A DNA stretch of 64,000 bases. Source: a virus (lineage: Duplodnaviria > Heunggongvirae > Uroviricota > Caudoviricetes). The position numbers and the translations under genes were made by a program. The notes below the pieces were generated by a model. That model worked only from the letters and a program-made list of their open reading frames with translations. It searched no databases and had not been told where the DNA came from. The number at the start of each line of letters is the position of its first letter. Position 1 is the first letter of the stretch. Below are positions 40,050 through 55,404 of the stretch, piece by piece. The stretch covers positions 51,635 through 115,634 of IMG/VR virus record IMGVR_UViG_3300037851_000307. The stretch is one strand, 5' to 3'.

Positions 40050-40229
40050 TTATTTCGATTCGGTAATGTTGTTAAGATTTTTTCTAAGCTCAGATAGTGC
40101 GCAGCCAATACAGTAAACATTATGATCTTCACAAGCTGTAGAGATATTCTTAGCTGCTAGTTCTTTTTCAATACCAGCTATGTTAGCTTCTATCTTTTCT
40201 TTTGGGGTCATTTCAGAGTATTTTTTCAT
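40050..40229 (-). CDS. possible small ORF (59 aa, MKKYSEMTPKEK…)
   Basis: Open frame overlapping the annotated start of the downstream gene; no convincing SD. Confidence 0.25.
   Translation of the reverse strand: MKKYSEMTPKEKIEANIAGIEKELAAKNISTACEDHNVYCIGCALSELRKNLNNITESK
40055..40064 (-). promoter_or_regulatory. ACCGAATCGA motif instance
   Basis: 10 nt upstream of the ATG at 40045. Confidence 0.45.
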
Positions 40230-40242
40230 AAGTAAAATGGAG

Positions 40243-40317
40243 GCGGGAGATATTGCAGTATTCTAGACTACTGAACTCAGATCTAGTGGCCATAACTTAT
40301 CCACTAGAACTCCCGCC
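40243..40317 (-). ncRNA. structured element (nested hairpins closed by GGCGGGAG/CTCCCGCC) 3' of the Ro60 gene
   Basis: 8-bp outer stem enclosing the TCTAGTGG/CCACTAGA hairpin and a TTCTAGA…TCTAG repeat; could be a terminator or a small RNA. Confidence 0.4.
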
Positions 40318-40333
40318 ATGTAATAAAAAGAAA

Positions 40334-40432
40334 GCGACGCTCAATGGATTGTGAATCCATCGTTAACTACCTATTCTAGACTTTCTCCAGAACCCATAGC
40401 TCAGTTTTACGTGGCTAGTTAACCACCGTCGC
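40334..40432 (-). ncRNA. structured element: three hairpins enclosed by GCGACG/CGTCGC
   Basis: ATGGATT/AATCCAT and GTGG…CCAC hairpins inside a 6-bp closing stem; non-coding. Confidence 0.35.
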
Positions 40433-40459
40433 TGCAAACAAATGGCACGTACCAATTGT

Positions 40460-42070
40460 TTATAAGTTGCCTTTTGAGAACTCGGTCATGATTTGTGGAG
40501 TCGAAGTATCGAAACCAACAACATCAAGCATATTCTTATCAGAAGGATCTGCGATGGTGAAACCATTTGCGCAAGTTCCTACTGTGATAAGTTTAGCTTC
40601 AGGCACCGACATTCCAGAGCGATATTTGTTTAAAGCTTGGAAAGGGTGCATTGAGCCAGCATAAGTTTCATTATCAGTATAGATAGCAAACGTGTCGATA
40701 TGTAACTTTTGTGCTAAAGCCCATTGCATAGGCAACGAACAGTCTGTTCCACCCCATGGAGCTTTTTGCATTGTTTTCAACACATCATCTAAACGTTTAC
40801 GCTTAGAAAGATCAAGTCTGTCTATTCCTGATGAGCCGTAACCAGAAGACGAGAAGTATACAACTTCTGAATTAGGTTCAGCTTTTAAAGTAACCATTGC
40901 CATGGCTCCAGCAGCTTCTGCCGCCGTCAAACCTGTTCCAGCGATTCTTGCTCCAAACATAGAACCTGAGCAATCAAGCGCAAGAAGATGGTTTTTGCCA
41001 GAAGTTTCTACGTTTCCAAAGGAAGTATAGAAAGCTTCATCCAACGCATCTATGATGTTGGTTACTGGTGACCAAGTCAGCGACCCCTTATCGCCTCGCC
41101 CTTGCTTATAAATAGCAAGCGCGTTCAGGATAGTGATGGGGTGAACACGCGATCTCTTGATCTGTTCAGCGTTATTCAGACGCTCAACGACTAGCTTAGT
41201 GTTAGTATCTAGGTTTGATTTCAACAAACCTACAGCAGTCATCTTAGCTAGATTTCTTAAAGTTGCAGTCATAGGCATATTCTGATTAAGAGCTTCCCAT
41301 ACTTCTCTTGAGTTCAAGAGTTCAGTGGGAAGCGCTTCACGAGGTAGCCCATACTTTTGTATCAAAGCAACAGCTTGCTTAGTATCTCCAGCTCCAAGAG
41401 TTTGGATTTCTTCAAAACCTTGAACAAGCGCGTGCTTTGTGGTTACTTCTTTGCCGGCTGCATATCTTAATAAGTCGTTCAATGCTGCATCGTTAGATGA
41501 AGCATGGCAAAGACGTAACACATCGCGGTGAGTAAAGTTGTTTCTGTTGCGGTACTTGATGATGTTCATAGCAACTTTATCAATATCATTTTGAGTATAA
41601 AACTTTGCAACACCATTTCTTAGTCCACGAGACCAACCGCGTAATGCTTGGATATTCTCAGTGAACTGAAATAAATGAGTTCCGATTCTACATACATCGG
41701 TGATAGCTTTATATGCTGCATTCTTTGTGGCTTCATCGCCAAAAGTTGTTGCTAAAGCTAACGCAAAGATTGCAGGGTCATTTTTAGGTGCTCGACCAGC
41801 TACAGAGATTTCAACGATTGTTTTCACAGTTCGCAAACCATCTTGCTTGATGCAATCAATAACAGCTTGCGCGTTGTCTACTGTCATCTTTTTCTCTGAC
41901 GCGTAGTATGAACCACCTTCGTTACCTAAGATAAGAAATCGATTCAGTTTAGAGAAGCTGTCTTGAGCAAAAACAAAACCACCGGCATTATTTTTAACCT
42001 GATCTTTACCTGGAACTTGTTGTGTTTGAGGAGTTGTTTTTGTGTTGAAGTGCTTAGTATAAGACATACT
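40460..42070 (-). CDS. rsr: Ro60/TROVE-domain ribonucleoprotein orthologue (Rsr) with C-terminal vWA (MIDAS DCSGS)
   Basis: 'GGFVF…RFLILGNEGGSYY…DPAIFALALA' matches the Ro60 TROVE signature (RFL.LGSEGGTYY); C-terminal 'LALDCSGSM' vWA MIDAS. Start set at MSYTKHF, which has the SD 'aaaggagaaagtATG'. Confidence 0.85.
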   Translation of the reverse strand, partial: SMSYTKHFNTKTTPQTQQVPGKDQVKNNAGGFVFAQDSFSKLNRFLILGNEGGSYYASEKKMTVDNAQAVIDCIKQDGLRTVKTIVEISVAGRAPKNDPAIFALALATTFGDEATKNAAYKAITDVCRIGTHLFQFTENIQALRGWSRGLRNGVAKFYTQNDIDKVAMNIIKYRNRNNFTHRDVLRLCHASSNDAALNDLLRYAAGKEVTTKHALVQGFEEIQTLGAGDTKQAVALIQKYGLPREALPTELLNSREVWEALNQNMPMTATLRNLAKMTAVGLLKSNLDTNTKLVVERLNNAEQIKRSRVHPITILNALAIYKQGRGDKGSLTWSPVTNIIDALDEAFYTSFGNVETSGKNHLLALDCSGSMFGARIAGTGLTAAEAAGAMAMVTLKAEPNSEVVYFSSSGYGSSGIDRLDLSKRKRLDDVLKTMQKAPWGGTDCSLPMQWALAQKLHIDTFAIYTDNETYAGSMHPFQALNKYRSGMSVPEAKLITVGTCANGFTIADPSDKNMLDVVGFDTSTPQIMTEFSKGNL

Positions 42071-42145
42071 TTCTCCTTTAAAAATAGCGGATAAATTGAT
42101 GACCATGGGGTTTTCGCCAAATGATAACCCATAATCTACGACCCG
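42071..42145 (-). ncRNA. Y-RNA-like module 5 (begins CGGGTCGTAGATTATGGGTTATCA, ends TTATCCGC + T-run)
   Basis: Shares the 5' consensus YGGGTCGWWAGA..TTNGGTTAYCA and the 3' TTATCCRY-Tn with four other units. Confidence 0.4.
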
Positions 42146-42149
42146 CGTT

Positions 42150-42429
42150 GTAAAAATTTTTCGTATCGGTTACAGTAAAAAGCTGCACGGATAATGAAGC
42201 AGATATTGGAAGCATGCGTTATGGCATGGATGTGTTTTAAGAGACATCGTGCTCATCCTGACCATATTAGCAGGTCATTGTGCGACTCATGTGTTTAGCC
42301 TTAGATATGCTGCAACGGTTTCCGCCGCTACACGTTGCTACTAGACTGAGCTTCTCTATTTCAAGAGGGGGTTAACGCCTAGAGTGCAGTTCTTTATCAA
42401 GTGTTGGTAACCAATTATCTATCGACCCG
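42150..42429 (-). ncRNA. Y-RNA-like module 4 (about 280 nt, several internal hairpins)
   Basis: Starts CGGGTCGATAGATAATTGGTTACCA and ends TTATCCGTGCAGCTTTTT; includes a GCAAC…GTTGC hairpin, a TGACC…GGTCA hairpin and an ACCGATACGA motif near its 3' end. Confidence 0.4.
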
Positions 42430-42430
42430 T

Positions 42431-42575
42431 GCTTAAAAATAAACTGATGGATAAAAGTATCGACATTCGGAAGATGACTTTTGCTCTACCAGCTGAGCTA
42501 CTTCCGCTACGGTGCAGAAGGTGGGATTCGAACCCACGACCCAAAGTTTGTTGATAACCAAATATCTACGACCCA
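42431..42575 (-). ncRNA. Y-RNA-like module 3 with circularly permuted tRNA-like domain (YrlA-like)
   Basis: Reading the minus strand: ACTTT-GGGTC-GTGGG TTCGAAT CCCAC (T-arm) – CTTCTGC accgta GCGGAAG (acceptor-like stem closed by a loop) – TA – GCTC AGCTGGTA GAGC (D-arm) – A – AAAGT. The anticodon-stem equivalent ACTTT/AAAGT joins the domain to the rest of the RNA. Confidence 0.6.
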
Positions 42576-42661
42576 TCAAAAAACTAAATAAAAAATGCGG
42601 ATAAGCTGTATGACAATAGGGGGTAATCATTAACAGTGATAACCTAAAGTCTATCGACCCG
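42576..42661 (-). ncRNA. Y-RNA-like module 2 (short)
   Basis: CGGGTCGATAGACTTTAGGTTATCA … TTATCCGCATTTTTTATTT. Confidence 0.35.
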
Positions 42662-42793
42662 CAAAAACTAAAACTAAAAGAGACGGATAAGGGGTGAGAT
42701 TGGAGATTTGCCTCTTGGACCACCTTTGGCTGACGGAATCGAACCGCCCAGATTTTTGTTTCAGAAAAAAGGTAACCAATACTCTTCGACCCG
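42662..42793 (-). ncRNA. Y-RNA-like module 1 (contains T-arm-like GGCGG TTCGATT CCGTC)
   Basis: CGGGTCGAAGAGTATTGGTTACC … TTATCCGTCTCTTTTAG; starts 8 nt after the stop of 42802..43083. Confidence 0.4.
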
Positions 42794-42801
42794 TCAAAAT
42801 T

Positions 42802-43083
42802 CTATTCTACCACAAATCCTTGTTCTTTGGCTTCTTTAAGAGATAAAGAACCTTGGCGTTCACCTTGTCTACGAGTTCGCTCGTAGCCAATCTTGTCAAA
42901 CGCTACAAATCGACCTTCAGGAATAACTATCTTGTAGACAGTACCTTCTTGGTCTTGAAAGTAACCATTAACTCCGATTTCCTTAGCAACAGCTTCAGTT
43001 GCAGCCGCAAGTTCTTCAAAGAATTTCTTAACTTCTTCTTTGCGTTTCTCTAACGCAACGAATTTTTGTTGTGCTTCAGTCAT
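42802..43083 (-). CDS. hypothetical protein
   Basis: 93 aa. Confidence 0.5.
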   Translation of the reverse strand: MTEAQQKFVALEKRKEEVKKFFEELAAATEAVAKEIGVNGYFQDQEGTVYKIVIPEGRFVAFDKIGYERTRRQGERQGSLSLKEAKEQGFVVE

Positions 43084-55312: not shown

Positions 55313-55404
55313 TGGTCTCACGGGCAGGACTCGAACCTACATTTTGCGCCAATCTAGCGCGTCTGGTGTATAAGGCCAGGGTTTTGCCATTAAACTACCG
55401 TGAG
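55313..55404 (-). tRNA. class-II-like tRNA (92 nt, 22-nt variable hairpin) with apparent anticodon TAT in loop CTTATAC; identity unresolved
   Basis: Acceptor CTCACGG/CCGTGAG; D-arm GTTT-AATGGCA-AAAC; anticodon stem CTGG(C)/(A)CCAG; variable arm GCGC-TAGATTG-GCGC; T-arm GTAGG-TTCGAGT-CCTGC; A-CCA. Confidence 0.5.

What the first reader, a model, noticed from the sequence alone, without database searches (positions are those of the whole stretch)
40243..42800. Phage Ro60 (Rsr) orthologue preceded by a tandem array of five Y-RNA-like modules, one with a circularly permuted tRNA-like domain
The 40460..42070 protein has the TROVE signature (RFLILGNEGGSYY) and a C-terminal vWA MIDAS, so it is a Ro60/Rsr orthologue. 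Immediately upstream on the same strand, 42071..42793 holds no ORF. It is built from five units that each begin with a 25-nt consensus YGGGTCGWWAGAnnnTTNGGTTAYCA and end with TTATCCRY plus a T-run. Unit 3 contains, in order, a T-arm (GTGGG TTCGAAT CCCAC), an acceptor-like stem closed by a hexaloop (CTTCTGC-accgta-GCGGAAG), a canonical D-arm (GCTC AGCTGGTA GAGC) and an anticodon-stem equivalent (ACTTT/AAAGT) that connects to the rest of the RNA. That matches the permuted tRNA-like effector-domain architecture described for bacterial YrlA Y RNAs. Unit 1 keeps only a T-arm. The GGGUCG(A/U)AGA start loosely resembles the GGUCCGAAGG Ro-binding strand of metazoan Y RNAs (from memory). A five-unit array next to rsr, plus two more structured elements 3' of rsr (40243..40432), would be an unusually elaborate Ro RNP locus for a phage.
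Basis: partly seen in the sequence, partly recalled or inferred. Interest (0 to 1): 0.85.

Follow-up and report, generated by a model that had tools for sequence, protein, structure and literature searches.

The report
Phage Ro60 gene with five Y RNAs
An uncultivated phage carries a Ro60 RNA-binding protein gene preceded by five different small "Y RNA" genes in a row, more than the one or two found next to most other Ro60 genes surveyed here; Ro60 with Y RNAs is already known from phages, and what the RNAs do was not tested.

Summary
The motif GGGTCG-N9-13-GGTTAYC occurs five times in 64 kb, all on the minus strand at 42087-42795, with 0 expected by chance. The gene at 40460-42067 is a full-length Ro60/Rsr (TROVE plus Ro60-vWA; D. 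radiodurans Rsr E 4e-119).

Each unit has the Y RNA core: a terminal helix, a 5' CG(A)WAG internal loop, a second helix, then GGUUAYC. Both helices covary across about 48 units from nine related metagenomic loci.

- Unit C carries a covarying T-arm, acceptor-like hairpin and D-arm in YrlA order, but scores 35.8 bits against the Rfam cut-off of 69.
- Unit A has a T-arm.
- Unit B has a hairpin whose heptaloop equals the tRNA-Asn anticodon loop.
- Unit D encloses about 200 nt with no Rfam match.
- Unit E is minimal and nearly reaches the nematode sbRNA cut-off.

A model of the core finds one or two units in most of 79 other Ro60 loci. Only this clade (4-5 units per complete array), L012 and L090 reach four or more.

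Phage Ro60 with Y RNAs is already published (2014, 2025), so this is an expanded, diversified variant of a known system. Expression, Ro60 binding and function remain untested.

The parts
42682..42795 (-). Unit A, 114 nt. Y core (GACGGGU/AUCCGUC terminal helix, CGAAGA loop, helix 2, GGUUACC) enclosing a T-arm (42748-42732, GGCGG-UUCGAUU-CCGUC) followed by a D-loop-like AGCCAAAGGUGGUCC segment. A T-run follows.
   Evidence: T-arm and both core helices covary in 8 orthologues
42597..42662 (-). Unit B, 66 nt, one long hairpin. Y core plus apical hairpin AUCA-CUGUUAA-UGAU (42640-42626). The 21 nt GGUUAUCACUGUUAAUGAUUA are identical in L001, L004, L006, L007 and in the distant viral contig L090.
   Evidence: (model R1, 63.9 bits)
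42446..42577 (-). Unit C, 132 nt, YrlA-type. Y core enclosing ACUUU/AAAGU stem, T-arm, 7-bp acceptor-like hairpin with ACCGUA loop, and D-arm (tRNA-like domain 42547-42477).
   Evidence: (YrlA 35.8 bits, E 1.8e-5, model positions 23-85)
42185..42432 (-). Unit D, 248 nt. Y core (GCACGGGU/AUCCGUGC, 8 bp) enclosing a roughly 200-nt multi-hairpin domain with no Rfam match.
   Evidence: no Rfam hit at E<=10
42161..42170 (-). ACCGATACGA box, a promoter-like element that recurs upstream of minus-strand genes. It lies 14 nt before the first base of unit E.
   Evidence: 14 sites against 3.1 expected; same box before unit D or E in relatives
42087..42146 (-). Unit E, 60 nt, minimal Y RNA. The T-run and the rsr Shine-Dalgarno sequence follow directly.
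   Evidence: sbRNA RF01656 34.3 bits, full length; R1 68.5 bits
40460..42067 (-). rsr: Ro60 orthologue, 535 aa, TROVE plus Ro60-vWA with DCSGS MIDAS motif.
40333..40433 (-). Downstream structured element 1: three hairpins closed by a 5-7 bp stem (CGACG/CGUCG core), followed by a T-run.
   Evidence: z -3.14; conserved with compensatory changes in L001
40242..40317 (-). Downstream structured element 2: GGCGGGAG/CUCCCGCC stem closing two hairpins, one with a conserved UCUAGAA loop.
   Evidence: (z -3.07)

Best explanation
This is a phage-encoded Ro60 ribonucleoprotein locus: the Ro60 gene plus five distinct Y RNA genes upstream on the same strand.

Shown
- All five RNAs share one core: terminal helix H1 (6-8 bp, with an invariant G-C and G.U pair next to the loop), 5' internal-loop strand CG(A)WAG, helix H2 (about 9 bp), then GGUUAYC. 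The 3' internal-loop strand is 7-10 nt and ends in YUU. A U-run follows each unit.
- Each core encloses a different apical domain: A a T-arm plus a D-loop-like segment; B an anticodon-loop-like hairpin; C a permuted tRNA-like domain of YrlA type; D about 200 nt of unknown kind; E almost nothing.

Inferred from the Xenopus, Deinococcus, Salmonella and Thermus-phage systems
- Ro60 binds the 5' strand of the core on the outside of its ring. The variable domain of each Y RNA then tethers or gates Ro60 towards a different partner.
- The best precedent is host PNPase, forming a machine that degrades structured RNA.
- Five adaptors would let one phage Ro60 take part in five kinds of complex during infection.
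- The tRNA-like parts point to tRNA-handling enzymes or tRNA quality control as partners.

Inferred from sequence
- Units A-D have no promoter box of their own. They are probably made from a longer transcript and released by processing, by termination at the U-runs, or both.
- Unit E and rsr have their own promoter-like box. E may therefore also act as a leaky terminator in front of rsr.

The confidence of 0.8 is for the identity (Ro60 plus five Y RNAs). The adaptor and PNPase mechanism is less certain, roughly 0.5.
For: - Ro60 identity: Pfam TROVE 8.9e-47 and vWA_Ro60 4.7e-59; PDB Rsr 2NVO 4.3e-119 and human and Xenopus Ro60.
- Five core motifs against 0 expected, nowhere else in 64 kb.
- H1 and H2 in 24 short units: 92.8% paired against 75% in shuffles, 12 of 15 pairs with changes on both sides, 0 of 500 shuffles as good, slid controls 41-49%.
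- H2 in 48 units, including all five of the window: cognate strands -8.7 kcal/mol against -4.6 for non-cognate, permutation p<1e-4.
- The same result holds in 56 units from distant loci that were not used to build the model.
- The array lies in the same position in all nine related loci (4-5 units where the array is complete), and unit types A, B, C, D and E recur among them.
- Unit C: sub-threshold YrlA hits in the window and in seven relatives; 17 of 25 pairs compensatory.
- Unit E: nematode Y-homologue model at 34.3 bits, full length.
- The core model finds a unit just upstream of Ro60 in 65 of 79 other Ro60 loci.
- Precedents: Y RNAs within 4 kb of Ro60 and on the same strand in 254 bacteria and 22 phages (PMC4201824); two Y-like RNAs upstream of a Thermus phage Ro60 that bind it and host PNPase (PMC12135203).
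Against: - Nothing here shows expression, RNA ends, Ro60 binding or any partner.
- No unit reaches an Rfam gathering score: YrlA 35.8 against 69, sbRNA 34.3 against 38. Rfam Y_RNA gives no hit at E<=10.
- Only unit A has the exact published GNCGAA(N0-1)G motif. B-E have GUCG(A)UAG.
- The simple terminator scan finds no minus-strand terminator in the array, so how 3' ends form is unclear.
- The structure of D rests on only two plus three homologues.
- The sequences used for covariation are related, so shuffle statistics overstate independence.
Confidence: 0.8

Rival explanations
1. The RNAs are real Y-type RNAs, but they work mainly as decoys or mimics of tRNA parts rather than as adaptors for RNA decay. 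A would mimic the tRNA elbow, B the anticodon stem-loop of a GUN tRNA, and C the acceptor, T and D arms. They would titrate or redirect host tRNA-targeting enzymes such as anticodon nucleases of anti-phage systems, tRNA-guanine transglycosylase, RNase P or the CCA-adding enzyme. Ro60 would stabilise them.
For: - Unit B's heptaloop CUGUUAA is identical to the commonest tRNA-Asn(GUU) anticodon loop in the fetched loci.
- 37 of 42 seven-base apical loops of short Y units fit YU-NNN-RN and 30 fit CU-NNN-AA. CUGUAAA (Tyr) and CUGCAAA (Cys) recur, and the stems covary.
- The B hairpin is invariant over 21 nt between Ro60 lineages only 45% identical, while the rest of the unit differs.
- Unit C has a 7-bp acceptor-like stem with an ACC(A) loop. 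[quoted passage not shown]
- Ro60 lies inside tRNA arrays in many loci.
Against: - A YU-NNN-RN loop is expected in 1 of 16 random heptaloops.
- The sequences counted are related, so the counts are inflated.
- The B stem has 4 bp plus a U.U, not the 5 bp of a tRNA anticodon stem.
- No anticodon nuclease or defence gene is linked.
- Units D and E have no tRNA-like part.
- No experiment supports decoy action for any Y RNA.
Confidence: 0.15
2. The units are mainly cis-acting transcription signals: a series of leaky terminators or attenuators that set rsr expression and insulate it from upstream genes. Any released RNA would be a by-product.
For: - Every unit is a closed stem followed by a U-run.
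- Unit E lies between a promoter-like box and the rsr Shine-Dalgarno sequence.
Against: - Terminators do not need a conserved internal loop (CG-AAG), an invariant GGUUAYC or a G.U pair.
- They do not need 130-250 nt tRNA-like or multi-hairpin inserts that covary.
- The core matches Y and sbRNA models.
- The consensus terminator scan finds none on this strand.
Confidence: 0.05
3. The region is decayed tRNA genes or other repeats without function, or it encodes a small protein (the 96-aa ORF at 42433-42723).
For: - tRNA-like pieces occur in units A and C.
- The window has a 122-codon stop-free stretch that only 9 of 300 shuffles equal.
Against: - ARAGORN and the Rfam tRNA model find nothing in this region.
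- The permuted order is conserved and covaries across relatives with 45-84% Ro60 identity.
- Open stretches differ in frame, place and length among relatives, 53-107 codons.
- The ORF has no PHROG match.
Confidence: 0.02

Closest known systems
Bacterial YrlA/YrlB Y RNAs with Rsr (S. Typhimurium, M. smegmatis; Chen et al. 2014, PMC4201824; Rfam RF02553)
   Same: - Encoded just upstream of Ro60 on the same strand.
- A G-N-CGAA-G-type motif near the 5' end.
- One RNA with T-arm, acceptor-like hairpin and D-arm in permuted order (unit C).
- One long-hairpin RNA (units B and E).
- A second RNA with only a T-arm, as reported for M. smegmatis YrlB (unit A).
- A 7-bp acceptor-like stem as in M. smegmatis YrlA.
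   Different: - Five RNAs instead of two.
- The stem part is too divergent for the Rfam model, which aligns only positions 23-85 (35.8 bits against 69).
- A 248-nt member (D) has a large domain of unknown kind.
- The host is a phage, and no rtcBA genes lie nearby.
Thermus phage phiLo Ro60 with Yrl1 and Yrl2 (NAR 2025, PMC12135203)
   Same: A phage Ro60 with Y-like RNAs carrying a CGAA motif in the upstream non-coding region. The architecture is stem, bulge, stem. This is the only phage system with binding data (Ro60 and host PNPase).
   Different: - Two RNAs there, five here.
- The paper reports no tRNA-like or large domains for Yrl1 and Yrl2.
- That Ro60 did not appear among my PDB sequence hits at E<=1e-5, so it is distant.
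Metazoan Y RNAs and nematode stem-bulge RNAs (Rfam RF00019, RF01656)
   Same: - Same layout: paired ends, a 5' CG-purine-rich loop strand, a second helix, then UUAUC.
- The 3' loop strand ends in CUU or UUU, and a U tail follows.
- Unit E aligns end to end with RF01656.
- Short units of distant Ro60 loci read ...GGGCCGAAG...UGGGUUAUC...CACCAACUUGUCC and pass the RF01656 gathering score.
   Different: - Window units stay below the cut-off (34.3 against 38).
- No hit to RF00019.
- The metazoan U tail is known to come from RNA polymerase III termination (from memory); its origin here is untested.
- Homology and convergence cannot be told apart from these data.
D. radiodurans Rsr with Yrn1 and Yrn2 and the Ro60-Y RNA-PNPase (RYPER) machine
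   Same: - Closest solved Ro60 (2NVO, E 4e-119).
[quoted passage not shown] Relatives L004 and L012 also mix real tRNAs with Y units.
   Different: - Yrn1's tRNA-like arms are in a different order.
- That system is a bacterial stress response, not a phage system.

Membership tests
Ro60 / Rsr | TROVE (HEAT-repeat ring) domain | tested here: met
   Pfam PF05731 E 8.9e-47; full-length alignment to 2NVO, 9NEN and 1YVP
Ro60 / Rsr | C-terminal Ro60-type vWA domain with MIDAS DxSxS | tested here: met
   PF25045 E 4.7e-59; D365-C-S367-G-S369 invariant in 12 relatives
Ro60 / Rsr | Binds Y RNA and misfolded RNA | not testable with these tools
   Needs EMSA or RIP
Y RNA (general) | Encoded close to Ro60 on the same strand | tested here: met
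   20-728 nt upstream, minus strand
Y RNA (general) | 5' and 3' ends pair into a stem interrupted by a conserved internal loop or bulge | tested here: met
   H1 and H2 covary; present in all five units
Y RNA (general) | Ro-binding 5'-strand motif (GNCGAAN0-1G in bacteria, GGUCCGA in metazoa) | tested here: inconclusive
   Unit A has GUCGAAG exactly. B-E have GUCGAUAG or GUCGUAG. All five units of relative L001 begin GUCGAAG or GUCGAAAG.
Y RNA (general) | Reaches a curated Rfam score (Y_RNA RF00019 or sbRNA RF01656) | tested here: not met
   RF01656 34.3 bits against 38 for unit E; no RF00019 hit at E<=10. Homologous units in 14 of 20 distant loci do pass RF01656.
Y RNA (general) | Associates with Ro60 and depends on it for stability | not testable with these tools
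   Needs RIP or northern blots in rsr mutants
YrlA (RF02553) | T-arm, acceptor-like hairpin and D-arm in that order, closed by a stem that leads to the Ro-binding stem | tested here: met
   Unit C; 17 of 25 pairs compensatory in 11 homologues; the closing stem also changes on both sides (ACUUU/AAAGU, ACUGU/ACAGU, ACUCU/AGAGU, ACAGG/CCUGU, read from the alignment)
YrlA (RF02553) | Rfam gathering score of 69 bits | tested here: not met
   35.8 bits, model positions 23-85 only; relatives score 30.7-44.2 bits
YrlA (RF02553) | tRNA-type modifications; substrate for RNase P and the CCA-adding enzyme | not testable with these tools
   Only the 7-bp acceptor-like stem and ACC loop are seen
tRNA | Cloverleaf recognised by ARAGORN or Rfam RF00005 | tested here: not met
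   No tRNA call in 40100-42900
Intrinsic terminator | Short GC-rich hairpin directly followed by a T-run | tested here: not met
   No minus-strand site in the array; T-runs are present but the closing helices are long-range

The most novel reading that the evidence does not exclude
The array is a kit of tRNA-part mimics mounted on a common Ro60-binding handle: elbow (A), anticodon stem-loop of a GUN tRNA (B), and acceptor, T and D arms with an ACC loop (C). With it, the phage would direct Ro60 and host nucleases to tRNA-handling or tRNA-cleaving host enzymes, or decoy those enzymes, for example anticodon-nuclease defences. Short Y RNAs in general would then be anticodon-arm mimics that complement YrlA, which lacks that arm. 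The near-identity of this Y core to nematode and metazoan Y RNAs would reflect common descent, possibly with phage-mediated transfer.
Probability: 0.15. Interest if true: 0.8.

Novelty: new variant of a known kind. Interest (0 to 1): 0.5.

Why it matters
What Y RNAs do in bacteria and phages is still largely open. The usual idea is that their variable domains select partners for Ro60. A phage clade carries four or five clearly different variable domains on one conserved handle wherever the array is complete. That gives a natural panel for testing the idea, because each RNA can be pulled down to see what comes with it. The panel includes a 248-nt member whose domain matches no described family.

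The survey also gave a compact core model that finds a Y RNA next to most Ro60 genes in metagenomes. It shows that some of these RNAs pass the curated threshold of a nematode Y-homologue family. This matters both for the origin of Ro particles and for automatic annotation, which would mislabel them.

Tried and rejected
- Megablast of the locus against 50,697 phage records found no match. The phage is uncultivated; its closest phage Ro60s are 45% identical.
- The search for related loci in viral contigs with the single protein found nothing.
- My first loose scanner (G-N-CG plus a 6-bp end helix plus a T-run) gave dozens of false hits across the window and was dropped.
- Model R1 does not detect the long units A, C and D in the window, because large inserts exceed its hit length. 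For those units I used trimmed ends with an artificial AAAAAA linker. MAFFT put helix 2 out of register in that alignment, so I scored helix 2 by cognate against non-cognate duplex energy instead.
- Aligning unit D across its two sequence versions gave no reliable common structure; the covariation term was positive. The separate alignments have only 2 and 3 sequences.
- Rfam found nothing for D at E<=10.
- The genome-contig scan with the unit-B 19-mer gave 36 hits. None is a tRNA or a Y unit, so I treat them as chance matches.
- The unit-A 18-mer found nothing in viral contigs.
- Pfam and PHROGs gave no function for the conserved 93-aa upstream ORF or for most neighbours.
- Two reviews on Ro60 and Y RNAs (PMC10870794, PMC6542706) are not held. 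I could not check whether larger arrays or anticodon-like loops have been described there.
Full report
**What is there**

The minus strand of 42795-42087 holds five units. Each begins with (N)GGGUCG-(A)WAG-...-GGUUAYC and ends with UUAUCC(R/A)Y plus a T-run. The pattern GGGTCG-N9-13-GGTTAYC matches exactly five times in 64 kb, all here. None was expected in 100 shuffles, and the repeat finder recovered the same five copies.

Directly downstream lies a 535-aa ORF (42067-40460) with an AGGAG 8 nt before its ATG. It has Pfam TROVE (E 8.9e-47) and Ro60-type vWA (E 4.7e-59) domains. It aligns end to end with D. radiodurans Rsr (2NVO, E 4.3e-119) and with human and Xenopus Ro60. Its MIDAS motif DCSGS is invariant among 12 relatives.

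The window is a tailed-phage genome. It encodes a terminase, a portal, a major head protein, tail proteins and 15 tRNAs. It has no close relative among 50,697 deposited phages.

**The shared core**

In every unit the first 6-8 bases pair with the last 6-8:

| Unit | Terminal helix H1 |
|---|---|
| A | GACGGGU/AUCCGUC |
| B | GCGGGU/AUCCGC |
| C | GAUGGGU/AUCCAUC |
| D | GCACGGGU/AUCCGUGC |
| E | GCGGGU/AUCCGC |

After a 5' loop strand CG(A)WAG comes a second helix of about 9 bp. The GGUUAYC motif overlaps its end: the GG pairs, and UUAYC follows it. The 3' loop strand is 7-10 nt and ends in YUU.

I fetched nine syntenic relatives through the Ro60 protein (65-84% identity). All carry such an array between a conserved 93-aa ORF and rsr: four or five units where the whole array is on the contig (L001, L003-L008), and two on the truncated contig L009.

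- In 24 short units, the 15 base pairs of H1 and H2 are formed in 92.8% of cells, against 75% in shuffles. Twelve pairs change on both sides. No shuffle out of 500 does as well, and sliding the partner by 1-3 columns drops pairing to 41-49%.
- Clear swaps include GGGU/AUCC to GGGG/CUCC and CGGG/CCCG to CAGG/CCUG. One G-C pair and one G.U pair next to the loop never vary.
- For all 48 units, long ones included, the cognate H2 strands pair at -8.7 kcal/mol on average, against -4.6 for non-cognate combinations (permutation p<1e-4).

A covariance model of this core (R1) finds only units B and E in the window at 64-69 bits. Everything else scores below 11 bits. The long units escape it because of their inserts.

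**The variable domains**

- **Unit C.** Its order is closing stem, T-arm, 7-bp acceptor-like hairpin, D-arm. The Rfam YrlA model aligns to exactly this part (35.8 bits, E 1.8e-5, model positions 23-85). It also hits the corresponding unit in seven relatives at 30.7-44.2 bits, always below the cut-off of 69. In 11 homologues, 17 of 25 consensus pairs show compensatory changes, and the closing stem changes on both sides as well. The acceptor-like loop begins with ACC in the window and ACCA in three relatives.
- **Unit A.** It has a covarying T-arm followed by a conserved AGCCAAGCUGGUGCC-like segment.
- **Unit B.** It is a single long hairpin. Its tip, GGUUAUCACUGUUAAUGAUUA, is identical in five clade members and in a viral contig (L090) whose Ro60 is only 45% identical and whose core sequence otherwise differs.
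- **Unit D.** It encloses about 200 nt of several hairpins. A few compensatory changes support them. No Rfam family matches at E<=10.
- **Unit E.** It is little more than the core. It matches the nematode stem-bulge RNA family RF01656, a Y RNA homologue (per Boria et al. 2010, recalled from memory), over its whole length at 34.3 bits against a cut-off of 38.

**How unusual five is**

R1 finds a 50-69-bit match about 65 nt upstream of Ro60 in 65 of 79 further Ro60 loci taken from metagenomes (46-57% identity).

| Core matches per locus | Number of loci |
|---|---|
| 1 | 46 |
| 2 | 16 |
| 3 | 2 |
| 5 | 1 (L012) |

R1 undercounts long units, so these numbers are floors. Even so, the window's clade, L012 and L090 stand out. 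L012 has six motif matches, with real tRNAs between the units. L090 has at least four by eye.

In the 56 best of these independent matches the two helices are 95.5% paired, and 12 of 15 pairs change on both sides. That alignment is fitted to the model, which favours the structure.

**Transcription signals**

A box ACCGAWWCGA occurs 14 times in the window against 3.1 expected. Thirteen copies are on the minus strand, mostly 15-35 nt before gene starts. One lies 14 nt before unit E, and the relatives have it before unit D or E. I read it as a phage promoter element; this is inference only. Units A-D have none, so they probably derive from a longer transcript. The consensus scan finds no classical terminator on this strand.

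**Downstream of rsr**

Two elements (40433-40333 and 40317-40242) fold with z about -3.1. Both are conserved in L001 with compensatory changes. Other relatives carry different structured elements at the same place. One type is shared by three loci and has nine pairs with changes on both sides, most of them in its long closing stem. Their role is unknown; they could be a 3' stabiliser, a terminator or a further Ro ligand.

**Comparison with what is known**

Y RNAs next to Ro60 were reported in 254 bacteria and 22 phages, with two per studied species, a GNCGAAN0-1G motif and the YrlA tRNA-like module (PMC4201824). A Thermus phage Ro60 binds two upstream Y-like RNAs and host PNPase (PMC12135203). 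A Listeria phage has three abundant RNAs upstream of an Rsr-like gene (PMC12282133). The kind of system is therefore known.

Three things are new here:
- the size and differentiation of the array;
- the large D domain;
- the invariant B hairpin.

I found no description of these in the searchable library. Two key reviews were not available.

**Mechanism**

The shared core and the diverse tips are shown. The rest is inferred from homologous systems: Ro60 binds the core, and each tip recruits or gates a different partner, with PNPase the best precedent.

A more speculative reading treats A, B and C as mimics of tRNA parts.
- Unit B's loop CUGUUAA equals the commonest tRNA-Asn anticodon loop in the fetched loci.
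- The recurrent loops CUGUAAA and CUGCAAA of other short Y units equal those of tRNA-Tyr and tRNA-Cys.
- 37 of 42 seven-base loops fit the anticodon-loop pattern YU-NNN-RN.
- However, the sequences are related, and the prior for that pattern is 1 in 16.

**Verdict**

It is an expanded variant of a published kind of system, with several testable leads. It is not a new category.

Noticed in passing
L045:1867-1935, L083:1869-1938, L063:1867-1935 and 11 more loci: The short Y RNA just upstream of Ro60 in 14 of 20 distant loci passes the Rfam gathering score of the nematode sbRNA family RF01656 (38.1-48.2 bits, cut-off 38). The consensus is GCGGGCCGAAGAACaUGGGUUAUC...CCCACGUUCACCAACUUGUCCGC. Automatic annotation would call these nematode RNAs. 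It also raises the question of descent against convergence with metazoan Y RNAs.
   Followed up: partly
window 42640-42626; alignment A11 and A2 units: Apical loops of short Y units look like anticodon loops. 42 of 76 are heptaloops, 37 fit YU-NNN-RN and 30 fit CU-NNN-AA. CUGUUAA, CUGUAAA and CUGCAAA equal the tRNA-Asn, Tyr and Cys anticodon loops found in the same loci. The stems covary.
   Followed up: partly
window 36768-63678, minus strand (14 sites): The box ACCGAWWCGA is about four-fold over-represented. It sits 15-35 nt upstream of gene starts on the minus strand and is also conserved in the relatives. It is probably a phage promoter element.
   Followed up: partly
window 40333-40433 and 40242-40317; L004:5628-5745, L007:4132-4250, L009:1994-2115: Every relative has a structured, covarying RNA element between rsr and the next gene, of at least three unrelated sequence types. 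The L004, L007 and L009 type contains GGUCGAAGC and CUAUCC inside a long closing stem. No function is known.
   Followed up: partly
L022, L029, L038, L070 and others: In many distant loci the Ro60 gene and its Y RNA sit inside dense tRNA arrays. ARAGORN calls up to 20 tRNAs in one locus, with a tRNA-Cys shortly after Ro60 in several of the loci inspected. These contigs are probably phages too.
   Followed up: no
L004:3282-3361; L012:885-1031 and 1304-1374: Real tRNA genes are interleaved with Y units in some arrays. This recalls the polycistronic Y RNA and tRNA precursor of D. radiodurans.
   Followed up: no
window 42513-42508; L001, L004, L005, L007 unit C: The loop of the acceptor-like hairpin begins with ACC (window, L001) or ACCA (L004, L005, L007). 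After RNase P-type cleavage the RNA would end like a tRNA 3' end, as reported for M. smegmatis YrlA.
   Followed up: partly
window 42106 against 42067: The public gene call for this Ro60 (P0001, 548 aa) starts at an ATG inside unit E. The relatives and the Shine-Dalgarno sequence favour the 535-aa start at 42067.
   Followed up: yes
window 42802-43083 (-): A 93-aa ORF (100 aa in L007) with no Pfam or PHROG match lies directly upstream of the Y array in the seven relatives whose contig reaches that far. It could be a partner of the system.
   Followed up: no
L005:290-410 and 702-800; L008:1820-1960 and 2113-2215: There are further structured inserts between Y units that lack the Y core and have no Rfam match.
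   Followed up: no
window 55313-55404 (-): A 92-nt tRNA-Ile(UAU) has a 19-nt insertion in the variable region. It is one of 15 tRNAs clustered at 54-59 kb.
   Followed up: no
window 42801-42436 (-): A 122-codon stop-free stretch runs across units A-C; only 9 of 300 shuffles equal it. It is not conserved in the relatives.
   Followed up: partly
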